Position numbers and translations under genes: made by a program. From Candidatus Poribacteria bacterium (lineage in GTDB: Bacteria > Poribacteria > WGA-4E > WGA-3G): a stretch of 64,000 bases of DNA. The DNA lies in NCBI GenBank assembly GCA_963665235.2, contig CAXXLX010000001.1, positions 992,001 through 1,056,000 on the forward strand, in the 5' to 3' direction. The notes under the pieces were generated by a model, which saw only the letters and a list, made by a program, of their open reading frames with translations, made no database searches and had not been told where the DNA came from. Positions 25,810 to 55,999 of the stretch are shown one piece after another (positions within the stretch are counted from its first letter, which is position 1; each line of letters opens with the position of its first letter).

Positions 25810-26172
25810 TTGAGAAATATGTTAGCATCAGAACATAACCCCACAAACGAGGCACTTAACACTCTTCGCGAAAAACTCCGCGAAATGTTCCACTTTGCAC
25901 ATACCGACCTAGACTTCGGCATCTTCCGTATCCTCAAAATCAAACGCAATGAAGTCAATCAATTCATCGATGACAAACTAACAGAAATCGTCCAAACCGC
26001 ACTCGCTGATGTAACAGAGGCTCTTTACGACAACCAACTGACACAGGTCAGGGAATATGTCACCGAAGAAGGCAGCCGTAGACAACGGGACTGGCTTGAG
26101 GATATCAAAGAGAATACCCCACAACTCGGCGCAAATATCGACAATTGGATGCCTCTGGTTAGAACAGTATGA
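25810..26172 (+). pseudogene. N-terminal remnant of a type III R-M methyltransferase (Mod)
   Basis: LREMFHF...DLDFGIFRIL resembles Mod N-termini; ORF ends after 120 aa with no catalytic motifs. Confidence 0.6.
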
Positions 26173-26311
26173 GGATGTCCTCAATAATATCACTTTACCG
26201 ACCACTTTATAAATATTAAGTATTTTGATGGAAATTCAGATAACATTCATCTTCTTGTGTTGTGGTTATGATCCATCCATTCAACACAGTCGCATGGAAT
26301 GGATAGATTAT

Positions 26312-26811
26312 TTGACATACTCTCCCAGCTAAAGCAAGGGAGATTCTTTTAAAAAGTTCCGCTACGCGTTAGCTATTGGATTGTGGTTTTCAGACGTGTG
26401 AACGTCCGAGGTCCCATCGAGGACATCCTCAACGGAGATGCTTGGGCTGTTCCAAGTCTTACTGCCCCTAACTCAAAGGACAAGGTTTCCCTGCCCTCGT
26501 GCTTCGCACCTTCTTTATGCTTGTGAATCAGTGCTTTGGTATCCAATGCAGCATGACCCGTCTTTTGGATACCGAAAGCATTGCACAAAAATGTGGATAT
26601 TGACTGGGTATCGCCAGAACATCAGCACACAACCCTACCATAGGTTGAGGTTCGGAACTTCAACATTGGTGGCGTTGAAGGTGGTAATCCGAACCACTGA
26701 TGATATATATATTATACCACATTTTAATGCAAAAGTCAAATTAAAAACATAAGCTTATGTTCCTACTACATCCCCCAGCTAAAGCACGGGGGTTTTGTAG
26801 CGGAAGACTTG
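26312..26811 (-). mobile_element. Non-autonomous IS200/IS605-family element, no tnpA/tnpB
   Basis: Inserted after TTAT; LE hairpin CCCCCGTGCTTTAGCTGGGGG; RE hairpin CTCCCTTGCTTTAGCTGGGAG ending TCAA; removing it restores a host ORF. Confidence 0.8.
26711..26739 (-). promoter_or_regulatory. Internal sigma70 promoter of the element
   Basis: TTGACT-17bp-TATAAT. Confidence 0.65.
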
Positions 26812-27204
26812 ATAAAAGTCCTGTTTCTTGGAGGAGTCTGCTACGAGATGCACTACCGTGTGGCTCAAAAAGATATGGACAATCTAACATTTTATGATAG
26901 TAGATGTCTGTTAAATCGATAAAACCTGTTATACCCTTAATATTTGTGGTTTCAACCGTTCGATAATAACCATGTATTCTGAGCAGTTCCTTACGTTTTT
27001 TACGTTGTATTAGGTGGATGACCTTATACCAATTTAGAAGTAGAAATAAAGGAATTCCAAATACAAGGCAAGTAACAACAACGTTTAGTAAGGTAACATC
27101 GGACATACTGTATTGTGGATTGGCAGCAACACCAATCAACCCAAAAGTTAAAATTACTGCAAGTGTGACTAACACAGGTTTAATAAGCATTTTGCTATCT
27201 TGAT

Positions 27205-27318
27205 CAGGACTTACGCAAATTTAGCAGAAACCTCGTAGGGGCGGGGTCTCCCCGTCCGCTATGTCTCGCTCTAGATCCCACTGTCATTAGGGTTTATCAA
27301 CGCGCTGCGTAAGTCCTG
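27205..27318. mobile_element. MITE-like element with perfect 13-bp TIRs
   Basis: caggacttacgca ... tgcgtaagtcctg; inverted homolog of 3391-3505. Confidence 0.7.
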
Positions 27319-27339
27319 GTCAAGTTAAGAATCAATGAC

Positions 27340-27566
27340 GAGTGCGTAAAGTTTCTGTACAAGTTAATCTATTGATGTTTAAAACGCCCTACTCCTACAG
27401 TGCGACTCATTGCTCAGCAGAACGGTGCTCGTAGTAGGGAAACCATTTATTGCCTGTCAGCGTAACATTTTTCGTAGTGTGCCTCATTGTTCGTCAGAGT
27501 CCTACACAACACGACGGGCGATGAATCGCCCTACTACAAACGCGTGTACGAAAACTTTACACACCC
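27340..27566. mobile_element. MITE with G(A/G)GTG(C/T)GTAAAGTTT TIRs and 9-bp TSD (IS256-like)
   Basis: ATCAATGAC duplicated at 27331-27339 and 27567-27575; same ends at about 3570-3590, 23656, 24728 and 48033. Confidence 0.75.
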
Positions 27567-55526: not shown

Positions 55527-55654
55527 GCAACCTCATAGTCGGCTATTGCAATTGTTAGAAGTGGATCGATACAAATAACAAGTTATGCGCCTCACTTTGT
55601 CACAACCCGCCTGCCAACAGCGGCGGCAGGCGAGCGGAGGCCATGATTCAAAAT

Positions 55655-55999
55655 CTTGAGTTGAGAATAAGCCGGATTCTGTATATGATGGTCATTCATC
55701 TGGGATTAATGTTTCCACTAACCTCAAGCGGTTACCTGGGAACGAGGCGGGCACGCCTTCGAATGTCCCCTATTTTACCTTGCTCCAGATGGGGTTTACC
55801 GAGCCCCATAAGTCACCTTATGGGCTGGTGCGCTTTTACCGCACCGTTTCACCTGTACAACGTTTTGAGGCGTTGTAGTCTACTCTCTGTTGCACTTTCC
55901 ATAGCGTCGCCGCTCCTGGGTGTTATCCAGCATCCTGCCCTGTGGAGTCCGGACTTTCCTCATCCCGTTTTCGGGACGCGACCATCTACTCAACTCAAG
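55655..55999 (-). ncRNA. rnpB: RNase P RNA (bacterial type A)
   Basis: GAGGAAAGTCCGGACTCC and ACAGAATCCGGCTTAT universal motifs; P1 CTTGAGTTGAG/CTCAACTCAAG; TTGCTA-18bp-TATAAT upstream. Confidence 0.95.

What the first reader, a model, noticed from the sequence alone, without database searches (positions are those of the whole stretch)
26312..26811. Protein-free IS200/IS605-ended cassette that looks built to express a large structured RNA
Seen: exactly 500 bp between a TTAT target and a TCAA right end, with IS605-type subterminal hairpins and no tnpA/tnpB. A near-consensus TTGACT-17-TATAAT promoter (26739-26711) fires toward the right end. The approx. 390-nt transcript is packed with stems: a long CAGTGCTTTGGTATCCAA/TTGGATACCGAAAGCATTG stem (26529-26583), CTTCAAC/GTTGAAG, GTGGT/ACCAC, CAACC/GGTTG, CTTGG/CCAAG, plus a competing GGTTCGGA/TCCGAACC pairing. 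Known: IS605 right ends encode the omegaRNA scaffold, and the flanking DNA becomes the guide. Inference: a mobile stand-alone guide or other ncRNA cassette, acting with a nuclease or transposase in trans; predicted guide starts ATAATCTATCCATTCC.
Basis: partly seen in the sequence, partly recalled or inferred. Interest (0 to 1): 0.75.

Follow-up and report, generated by a model that had tools for sequence, protein, structure and literature searches.

The report
Protein-less transposon carrying a guide RNA
This 500-bp stretch is a small mobile element of a sponge-symbiont bacterium that has lost its nuclease gene but keeps a promoter, a folded leader and the guide-RNA scaffold, so it probably borrows the cutting and moving enzymes of sister elements; elements of this kind are already known.

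Summary
Window 26312-26811 is a 500-bp IS200/IS605-family element with no gene.

- **Boundaries:** public contigs from 3 of 4 laid runs join 26311 directly to 26812. This gives the exact ends and the TTAT target.
- **Copies:** the genome (Candidatus Poribacteria) has 9 full copies at 8 distinct sites and 1 decayed copy.
- **Partners:** ten 1.4-kb TnpB-only elements share its ends, and there are at least 8 open Y1 TnpA genes.
- **Origin of the interior:** it is a collapsed tnpB element on the minus strand. It has a near-consensus promoter, a roughly 90-nt pseudoknotted leader, a few tnpB start codons and a long hairpin. Its last 166-190 nt are homologous to tnpB 3' ends, the omegaRNA region (E about 1e-19).
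- **Conservation:** homologs in four other genomes keep the helices through compensatory changes, in 20 of 90 pairs against 2-4 in slid controls.

Best reading: a PATE-like, guide-only cassette that uses TnpB and TnpA in trans. Meers et al. 2023 already state this concept (passage read), and this scan noted a similar orphan guide in a phage (e1-5917372).

The leader pseudoknot appears to be undescribed. It matched no Rfam family and was found in 97 of 112 family genomes.

Expression and TnpB binding were not tested.

The parts
26812..26815 (-). Target / transposon-adjacent motif TTAT (minus strand), which stays in the empty site
   Evidence: Empty-site contigs join 26311 to 26812. TTATCAA precedes 24 of 25 related left ends, and T stands one base further upstream in 18 of 25.
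26312..26811 (-). The whole 500-bp non-autonomous IS200/IS605-family element. The left end is at 26811 and the right end at 26312.
   Evidence: There are 9 full copies in the genome at 8 distinct flanks.
26772..26792 (-). Left-end subterminal hairpin (CCCCC, 11-nt loop, GGGGG)
   Evidence: Direct repeat of the right-end hairpin (D3). Conserved in all copies.
26711..26739 (-). Sigma-70-type promoter TTGACT-17-TATAAT with TG extension. Predicted start near 26704.
   Evidence: The same promoter lies upstream of tnpB in autonomous elements and in cassette homologs of other genomes.
26615..26705 (-). Pseudoknotted leader. P1: 26696-26702 with 26620-26626. P2: 26688-26695 with 26649-26656. P3: 26674-26680 with 26658-26664. 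P4: 26643-26647 with 26630-26634. Pseudoknot: 26682-26687 with 26635-26640.
   Evidence: The same architecture forms the 5' UTR of tnpB genes.
26606..26622 (-). Remnant of the tnpB start (ATG and about 6 codons, reading ..RYPV)
   Evidence: Translation compared by eye with TnpB N-termini MRLTFRYPV. The frame is not kept in G107 or G087.
26529..26583 (-). Long hairpin (about 18 bp with one bulge). Its role is unknown; it may be the 5' part of the guide-RNA scaffold.
   Evidence: (I12). The stem top changes CCAA/TTGG to CCGAA/TTCGG (G107, G087) and to CCGTC/GGACGG (G114).
26312..26502 (-). omegaRNA-like scaffold, ending at the right-end boundary
   Evidence: Model R2, built from cassette copies only, matches here. 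It also matches over its full length the 3' ends of all 10 TnpB elements of the 1.4-kb family (about 100 bits, E about 1e-19). Shared helices are seen.
26407..26430 (.). 24-nt secondary insertion inside the scaffold, present in 3 of the 9 full copies and partly in a fourth
   Evidence: It belongs to a roughly 30-nt repeat with 20 hits in the genome.
26321..26343 (-). Right-end subterminal hairpin (TCTCCC, loop, GGGAGA)
   Evidence: The stem covaries among element families.
26292..26311 (-). Predicted guide: the flanking DNA read through from the right end, starting ATAATCTATCC. Its length is assumed.
   Evidence: Position only. In the empty site this stretch directly follows TTAT. No RNA data.

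Best explanation
This is a PATE-like, protein-less derivative of a TnpB-type IS200/IS605 insertion sequence. It keeps only what is needed to be moved and to make a guide RNA.

What is shown:
- It has IS605-type ends and inserts after TTAT without a duplication.
- It is present at this site in some public assemblies and absent in others.
- It occupies 8 distinct sites in this genome.
- Its minus strand carries, in order: the promoter of the parent element, the parent's pseudoknotted 5' leader, a stub of the tnpB start, a long hairpin, and a roughly 170-190-nt domain homologous to the tnpB 3' end and right end, where omegaRNAs are encoded.
- These RNA helices are kept by compensatory changes in four other Poribacteria genomes.

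What is inferred:
1. The promoter makes a transcript of about 390 nt that runs through the right end into the flank.
2. TnpB from the ten sister elements binds the 3' scaffold and trims off the 5' part.
3. TnpB then uses the flank as a guide to cut the empty TTAT-plus-flank site left when Y1 TnpA, encoded by full IS605 copies, excises the cassette.
4. Repair from a sister chromosome restores the cassette.

On this reading the cassette is a guide-only hitchhiker on its relatives' homing system. The leader most likely protects the 5' end of the transcript or sets its level. That is the weakest step.
For: Element and mobility:
- An exact 500-bp skip 26311->26812 is seen in contigs of 3 of 4 runs; the filled junctions are seen in the fourth.
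- Word depth over the interior is about 200-350 against 13-26 in the flanks.
- There are 9 full copies and 1 decayed copy.
- TTATCAA stands before 24 of 25 left ends.

Partners:
- There are 10 full-length copies of a 400-aa TnpB, 9 of them without stops, carrying Pfam OrfB_IS605 and the Cas12f1-like TNB domain. They share about 113 nt of the left end (including the promoter) and 43 nt of the right end.
- Y1_Tnp gave 13 matches, 8 of them over most of the model in open frames.
- Two of these lie beside left ends whose first 22 nt are identical to the cassette's.

Guide-RNA scaffold:
- R2, built from 7 cassette sequences, matches at full length 9 cassette copies (133-169 bits).
- It also matches all 10 TnpB 3' ends (88-102 bits) and further tnpB 3' ends. 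In all there are 34 matches at E<=0.01.

Structure:
- Of 90 consensus pairs, 20 have changes on both sides. Shuffles gave 7.3 +/- 1.8 (0 of 500 reached 20) and slid controls gave 2-4. 97.7% of cells are paired.
- Several G-U pairs make the fold specific to the minus strand, and the minus strand folds better.

Leader:
- In 14 sequences, 22 of 27 pairs change on both sides.
- The 7-nt pseudoknot is complementary (score at least 5) in 10 of 12 independent leaders, against 7 of 132 non-cognate combinations. No permutation of 10,000 reached the observed mean.
- Of the 9 best non-cassette hits examined, 7 are followed within about 20 nt by a TnpB ORF.

Literature: Meers et al. [quoted passage not shown]
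Against: - There is no RNA evidence, so transcription, processing and RNA ends are predictions.
- Apart from the last 43 nt, the scaffold is clearly diverged from that of the resident TnpB elements. Mean column identity is 60% over 10 sequences, and the TnpB ends score about 100 bits against 133-169 for cassette copies. Recognition by that TnpB is therefore not assured.
- In G107 and G114 the cassette is single-copy, and no other match to R2 at E<=1e-6 was found. There it may be an orphan without a partner.
- Three of the 9 full copies, including this one, carry a 24-nt foreign insertion inside the scaffold. This could damage it.
- Only about four independent lineages carry the cassette, so the covariation counts rest on few events.
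- The alignments behind searches were fitted to the model and lean toward it.
- Perfect hairpins can also be kept at the DNA level.
Confidence: 0.68

Rival explanations
1. An inert deletion derivative. TnpA moves it because it has good ends, but its RNA does nothing. The promoter, leader and scaffold are leftovers that have not yet decayed.
For: - The interior descends piece by piece from a tnpB element.
- Some copies carry insertions and deletions inside the scaffold.
- The cassette is single-copy, with no detected partner scaffold, in G107 and G114.
- It is rare: 5 of 112 family genomes.
Against: - All lineages share the same deletion architecture, so they descend from one ancestral cassette. 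They have since diverged to 71-84% identity.
- Over that divergence they kept 97.7% of pairs, with 20 double-sided compensations.
- The promoter hexamers are kept as well, whereas the coding remnant lost its frame.
Confidence: 0.2
2. A regulatory or decoy RNA. The cassette transcript acts on the sister elements rather than as a guide. It could soak up TnpB, or it could pair with tnpB mRNA leaders or start regions to hold down nuclease levels.
For: - The cassette carries the same leader as tnpB mRNAs.
- A predicted long-range helix pairs the tnpB-start remnant (UGGCGAUAC) with the right-end tip (GUAUGUCA).
- The stretch just before the start codon of several tnpB genes (UUGAUAUAC) is likewise complementary to that tip (read).
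Against: - That helix never varies, apart from one one-sided change, so there is no covariation for it.
- No data show any interaction.
- The full scaffold and the read-through into the flank fit a guide better.
Confidence: 0.08
3. An IStron-like self-splicing element (a group I intron fused to IS605 ends) that removes itself from host transcripts.
For: It has IS605 ends, a large structured RNA and no gene. It sits inside the 3' end of a small ORF on the same strand.
Against: - No Rfam intron or ribozyme family matched, even at E up to 10.
- The conserved promoter lies inside the element, downstream of the would-be 5' splice site.
- The structure is fully accounted for by leader plus scaffold.
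- The element ends in A. Group I introns end in G (recalled rule).
Confidence: 0.02

Closest known systems
PATE-like non-autonomous IS200/IS605 elements that encode omegaRNAs (Meers et al. 2023, PMC10055086; passages read)
   Same: No protein gene; IS605 left and right ends shared with TnpB elements; an omegaRNA region at the right end; needs TnpA and TnpB in trans; multi-copy.
   Different: - It has its own near-consensus internal promoter and a roughly 90-nt pseudoknotted leader inherited from the tnpB mRNA.
- It is conserved across genera with compensatory changes.
- An empty-site allele is documented in public data.
- I could not see that paper's extended-data figures or supplements, so I cannot say how its PATEs are built.
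TnpB-only IS605-group elements with 3' omegaRNA. Examples: the resident 1.4-kb family in this genome; ISDra2 (recalled, Karvelis et al. 2021); sotRNAs of IS1341-type genes (Gomes-Filho et al. 2015, PMC4615843, start of abstract seen in the listing).
   Same: Same target motif, same right-end tip and hairpin, same order of scaffold helices, same promoter position.
   Different: - The 1.2-kb tnpB ORF is missing.
- The scaffold beyond the last 43 nt is diverged.
- The leader of the resident 1.4-kb family looks simpler (read by eye).
Orphan TnpB guide-RNA relic noted earlier in this scan in a T4-like phage (e1-5917372)
   Same: Promoter plus omegaRNA scaffold without a nuclease gene.
   Different: That one was judged immobile and single. 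This one is mobile, multi-copy and has both transposon ends.
IStrons (Zedaveinyte et al. 2023 preprint, 10.1101/2023.11.20.567912; passages read)
   Same: IS605/IS607 ends around a large structured RNA, with the omegaRNA at the right end.
   Different: No group I intron core was detected. Transcription starts inside the element.

Membership tests
IS200/IS605-family non-autonomous element (PATE-like) | Subterminal hairpins in direct orientation at both ends, no terminal inverted repeats | tested here: met
   family D3 (26321-26345 and 26771-26795). Conserved in all copies.
IS200/IS605-family non-autonomous element (PATE-like) | Insertion 3' of a short specific motif, without target-site duplication | tested here: met
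   The empty-site contigs join 26311 to 26812 with no shared letters. TTAT(CAA) stands before 24 of 25 left ends.
IS200/IS605-family non-autonomous element (PATE-like) | No protein-coding gene; ends shared with elements that carry tnpB or tnpA | tested here: met
   (no protein signal). (shared ends; TnpB and Y1 TnpA genes present).
IS200/IS605-family non-autonomous element (PATE-like) | Mobilised by a Y1 transposase as single-stranded DNA | not testable with these tools
   Indirect only: presence/absence polymorphism and 8 distinct insertion sites.
TnpB omegaRNA | Encoded at the 3' end of the element, ending at the right-end boundary, homologous to the region overlapping the tnpB 3' end | tested here: met
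   R2 matches window 26312-26502. It also matches the 3' ends of 10 of 10 resident TnpB elements of the 1.4-kb family at full length. Alignment.
TnpB omegaRNA | Conserved secondary structure | tested here: met
   Helices 11-13 and 16 each have pairs with double-sided changes. The first scaffold stem covaries between cassette and TnpB elements in 5 of 8 pairs. The middle helices were compared by eye only.
TnpB omegaRNA | Transcribed, bound and processed by TnpB, and directs TAM-dependent DNA cleavage | not testable with these tools
   No run on record as RNA holds the stretch.
Curated Rfam families (HEARO, IS605-orfB motifs, group I/II introns, known ribozymes) | Match to the family covariance model | tested here: not met
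   No match at gathering score or at E up to 10 over 25900-27400. The exception is HgcC at 14.7 bits (cut-off 50). Nothing was found for the leader or scaffold in 11 related loci at E up to 1.
IStron (group I intron in an IS605/IS607 element) | Group I catalytic core, with splice sites at the element boundaries | tested here: not met
   No intron model match. The promoter lies inside the element.

The most novel reading that the evidence does not exclude
The pseudoknotted leader is a functional RNA module of TnpB transposons that has not been described. It is present in well over a thousand copies across Poribacteria. The guide-only cassette keeps it because guide-RNA production or loading depends on it. 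On this reading the cassette is a hyperparasite: a transposon reduced to promoter, leader and guide that survives by programming its relatives' nuclease to home it. Its spread to 8 sites only in the genome that also holds ten matching TnpB copies would be the signature of that dependence.
Probability: 0.3. Interest if true: 0.7.

Novelty: new member of a known kind. Interest (0 to 1): 0.5.

Why it matters
It is a clean natural example of the modular logic proposed for IS200/IS605 elements. The guide RNA, the nuclease and the transposase sit on separate mobile units in one genome. An empty-site allele fixes the boundaries to the base.

Two points go beyond the textbook case:
- The cassette lineage has kept its RNA folds by compensatory change across genera, which argues that a guide without a nuclease gene is under selection.
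- It exposes a compact pseudoknotted leader shared with tnpB mRNAs that matches no curated RNA family and is very abundant in this phylum.

Both points can be tested with ordinary expression and cleavage assays. They could inform how TnpB guide RNAs are expressed and stabilised.

Tried and rejected
- **Decayed protein:** tblastx of the element against 15 resident tnpB regions gave only the shared right end. Pfam on the two internal ORFs gave nothing.
- **Rfam:** nothing beyond a sub-threshold HgcC hit.
- **Wider homolog hunt:**
  - A pattern scan of genome contigs found 4 loci: the three Poribacteria loci already in hand and one chance hit in a Planctomycetota MAG.
  - Two pattern scans of metagenome contigs found 0.
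  - A DNA search of 61 relatives with the whole element found only end matches outside this genome.
  - A search with the G087 homolog was swamped by an unrelated 24-30-nt repeat that sits in that copy.
- **RNA evidence:** no RNA holder was listed. The four runs laid are contigs of unknown library kind and say nothing on expression.
- **First boundary reading, wrong:** I first placed the left boundary after TTATCAA, which would give a 497-bp element, because all copies share those letters.
- **Automatic alignments:**
  - MAFFT put leader helices P1, P3 and the pseudoknot of tnpB leaders out of register.
  - MAFFT also left the middle scaffold helices unaligned.
  - A first crude pseudoknot parser misassigned helices in several sequences. 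It was replaced by the column-based test.
- **R1:** the model built from cassette copies alone found no tnpB leader in this genome with default filters.
- **Papers:**
  - A search for Poribacteria with TnpB returned 0 papers.
  - A search for tnpB, UTR, pseudoknot and IS605 returned 5 papers, of which 4 were listed. Judging by those titles and abstract starts, none is about a tnpB 5' leader. I did not read them for this point.
  - Supplements were not available.

Full report
**1. What is there**

The region was read. A DNA search of the window's own genome (5.3 Mb, 4 contigs) with 26250-26870 gave 43 matches.
- Nine matches cover the element end to end at 84-100% identity. These include the window's own copy and a copy on contig C3 that shares both flanks with the window.
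- One further match is a decayed copy at 73% identity.
- Aligned with 60 nt of flank, the copies stop being alike exactly at the two ends. That gives 8 distinct insertion sites.

Many further matches cover only the ends: about 43 nt at the low-coordinate end and about 113 nt at the high-coordinate end. In ten places these two pieces lie about 1.4 kb apart. Between them, on the window's minus strand, is a 400-aa ORF with Pfam OrfB_IS605 and the Cas12f1-like TNB domain.
- Ten full-length copies at 95-100% identity exist, nine of them without a stop.
- tnpB therefore reads on the minus strand.

**2. Exact boundaries and mobility**

All 25 related left-end starts in the genome are preceded by the same seven letters, TTATCAA in 24 of 25. 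I first took this as a 7-nt target and a 497-bp element. Public data corrected me.
- When Logan contigs of four runs were laid on 25900-27300, contigs of three runs (two studies) joined 26311 directly to 26812. The joint skipped exactly 500 bases, with no letters that fit both sides.
- The fourth run has contigs across both filled junctions.
- The element is therefore 26312-26811. It follows TTAT, begins CAAGTC and ends GTCAA on the minus strand.
- It makes no duplication, and it is present in some near-identical strains and absent in others.
- Word depth over the interior is roughly ten times that of the flanks, in line with the copy count.

The two subterminal hairpins are a direct repeat, as expected for IS200/IS605 elements.

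Y1 transposase genes are present: 13 matches, 8 of them over most of the model in open frames. Two of these sit beside left ends whose first 22 nt are identical to the cassette's.

Record titles of homologous loci name the organism group as Candidatus Poribacteria.

**3. What the interior is**

It is not recognisable protein. The internal ORFs have no Pfam hit, and tblastx against 15 resident tnpB regions found only the shared right end. It is not a curated RNA family either. The answer came from relatives.
- Among 112 genomes of the family, homologs of the interior were found in only four others. G107, G087 and G114 have one copy each. G105 has fragments at contig ends and a deletion derivative.
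- These homologs align over the whole length, from the promoter to the right-end tip, at about 71-84% identity.
- They share the same architecture, so they descend from one ancestral cassette.

Piece by piece, on the minus strand:

(a) *Promoter.* The promoter is TTGACT-17-TATAAT with TG, 11 of 12 matches. It is the promoter that precedes tnpB in autonomous elements.

(b) *Leader.* The next roughly 90 nt form a leader with four helices and a pseudoknot.

(c) *Start-codon remnant.* An ATG follows, with a few codons reading ..RYPV, like TnpB N-termini MRLTFRYPV. The frame is broken in G107 and G087.

(d) *Hairpins.* A short hairpin and the long 18-bp hairpin (26529-26583) come next.

(e) *Guide-RNA scaffold.* The last 170-190 nt align with the 3' end of the resident tnpB genes and the right end.
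- A covariance model built from seven cassette sequences only (R2, 166 positions) was run on the whole genome.
- It matched the nine cassette copies (133-169 bits).
- It also matched, over its full length, the 3' ends of all ten 1.4-kb TnpB elements (88-102 bits, E 1e-19 to 1.6e-16).
- More weakly, it matched other tnpB 3' ends, including that of an IS605 copy with tnpA. In all there were 34 matches at E<=0.01.
- From the literature, this is where omegaRNAs are encoded.

The cassette is therefore a tnpB element in which almost the whole ORF has been removed, leaving promoter, leader and guide-RNA scaffold.

**4. Is the RNA structure real?**

The minus strand folds at -140.4 kcal/mol (z -5.3 against shuffles). 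The plus strand folds at -128.1 kcal/mol (z -2.5).

RNAalifold on 12 full-length sequences (11 distinct) predicts 90 pairs, 20 of them with compensatory changes on both sides. Counted against controls:
- 97.7% of cells pair.
- 20 pairs have double-sided changes. Shuffles gave 7.3 +/- 1.8 (0 of 500 reached 20), and the structure slid by 1-3 columns gave 2-4.
- Invariant G-U pairs make the fold strand-specific.

Caveat: only about four lineages are independent, so these are few evolutionary events.

One predicted long-range helix pairs the tnpB-start remnant with the right-end tip. It does not vary, so it is neither supported nor excluded.

**5. The leader**

The same architecture forms the 5' UTR of many poribacterial tnpB genes.
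- A model built from cassette leaders alone (R1), run without filters, found nine such UTRs at E<0.05, at the expected place and strand.
- On the resulting 14-sequence alignment, 22 of 27 nested pairs change on both sides and 95.5% of cells pair. Slid controls gave 8-12 pairs. This alignment was fitted to the model and leans toward it.

The pseudoknot was tested without relying on loop alignment.
- The 7-8 nt between the 5' arm of P2 and P3 were compared with the 8-nt loop of P4.
- Among 12 leaders kept after dropping two near-duplicates, the cognate pair scores at least 5 in 10 of 12. Most are perfect 7-mers, with nine different sequences.
- Non-cognate combinations reach that score in 7 of 132.
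- No permutation of 10,000 reached the observed mean.

A broader model (R3) matched in 97 of 112 family genomes. In a phylum-wide sample it matched in 94 of 151 genomes at E<=1e-5, almost all in the same family and one neighbouring family.

Of the nine best non-cassette hits that I looked at, seven are followed within about 20 nt by an ORF with TnpB domains, and two by no ORF. Other protein-less derivatives therefore exist.

No Rfam family matches the leader. My paper searches returned nothing on Poribacteria with TnpB, and the 4 listed of 5 papers holding tnpB, UTR, pseudoknot and IS605 do not, by title and abstract start, concern a tnpB leader. I did not read them for this point.

**6. How it most likely works**

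Shown: the anatomy, the mobility polymorphism, the homology of the 3' domain to tnpB 3' ends, the conservation of the folds, and the presence of TnpB and TnpA genes elsewhere in the genome.

Inferred from established knowledge of IS200/IS605 elements (Meers et al. 2023, passages read; Nety et al. 2023, abstract start seen in the listing; Karvelis 2021 and Altae-Tran 2021, recalled):
1. The promoter drives a transcript of about 390 nt through the right end into the flank.
2. TnpB from the sister elements binds the scaffold and trims the 5' part.
3. The flank (starting ATAATCTATCC) then serves as the guide.
4. After TnpA excises the cassette, the empty site reads TTAT followed by exactly that flank. 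It is therefore a target for cleavage and for repair from a sister chromosome that still carries the cassette.

In the cassette the leader cannot be regulating translation of tnpB, yet it is kept. The simplest role is protection or dosing of the transcript, since its first helix starts within a few bases of the predicted 5' end. This last step is a guess.

**7. Against, and open**

- No RNA data exist for this organism in what I could reach.
- The scaffold differs substantially from that of the resident TnpB family outside the last 43 nt.
- Three of the 9 full copies, including the window's, carry a 24-nt foreign insertion in the scaffold.
- In G107 and G114 no second R2 match at E<=1e-6 was found, so no obvious partner is present there. 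G087 has other matches, including one 1.1-1.2 kb downstream of a leader on the same strand.
- The cassette has multiplied only in the one genome that also has ten matching TnpB copies. That fits dependence on a partner, but it is a single observation.

**8. Comparison with what is known, and verdict**

The concept is in print. Meers et al. describe PATE-like elements without genes in Geobacillus and state that PATEs often encode omegaRNAs that must be used in trans. This scan also noted an orphan guide in a phage (e1-5917372).

The element passes every sequence-level test for a non-autonomous IS200/IS605 element and for an omegaRNA-type right end. It fails the tests for IStrons and for curated RNA families.

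I file it as a new member of a known kind. Three extras are worth recording:
- base-exact boundaries from an empty-site allele;
- cross-genus compensatory conservation of a guide-only cassette;
- an abundant, apparently undescribed pseudoknotted leader shared with tnpB mRNAs.

Interest 0.5.

Noticed in passing
window 27196-27327: A separate small repeat with 22-nt inverted arms (91% complementary). A 146-nt query around it gave 106 BLAST hits in the genome, mostly about 113 nt at 91-96% identity. Word depth in public contigs there is about 80 times that of the flank. It looks like a high-copy MITE.
   Followed up: partly
window 26407-26430; also L063 about 1645-1670: A 24-nt insertion inside the cassette scaffold belongs to a roughly 30-nt repeat with 20 hits in this genome. 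The G087 cassette carries a different 23-nt insertion in its long hairpin loop. That insertion is a very common short repeat across the genus: it drew matches in 44 of 65 genomes of that genus. Tiny repeats seem to target hairpins in these genomes.
   Followed up: partly
L157 (= L127) and L154; G000 C1:490753-491347 (L021); G000 C2 near 751,000 (L030): Other leader-bearing elements have no ORF downstream of the leader, including a 595-bp element in this genome. Guide-only or gene-less derivatives of other TnpB families probably exist.
   Followed up: partly
tnpB leaders in L117, L118, L120 (about 10-20 nt before the ATG) and window 26606-26614 with 26313-26320: The stretch just before the tnpB start codon (UUGAUAUAC, often as a near-duplicate of the P1 3' arm) is complementary to the right-end tip GUAUGUCAA. 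In the cassette the start remnant is predicted to pair with that tip. Both sides are invariant, so this could reflect regulation or shared junction-like sequence. Unexplained.
   Followed up: no
window 26744-27220 (minus strand): The cassette sits about 20 codons before the end of a small ORF (149 aa from its ATG) with no Pfam hit. In the empty form the frame runs on to 26250 (157 aa stop to stop, against 159 aa in the filled form). The insertion therefore swaps the C-terminal tail.
   Followed up: partly
window 25810-26172: A 120-aa ORF ends 140 nt before the cassette. It has only a sub-threshold DUF6279 hit (23.8 bits, cut-off 27.7). Public contigs diverge from the window around 25905-25967, so this neighbourhood varies between strains.
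   Followed up: no
contig C3 of the genome, 14349-14944: A second copy of this very locus, with the same flanks on both sides, at about 94-95% identity and with its own deletions. It is either a strain variant co-assembled into the bin or a segmental duplication.
   Followed up: no
window 26302-26418 and L015 188-300 (minus strand): Sub-threshold matches to Rfam HgcC (14.7 and 22.4 bits, cut-off 50) fall on the right-end region of both the cassette and the TnpB element.
   Followed up: no
window 55653-55997 (minus strand): Bacterial RNase P RNA class A, 299 bits.
   Followed up: no
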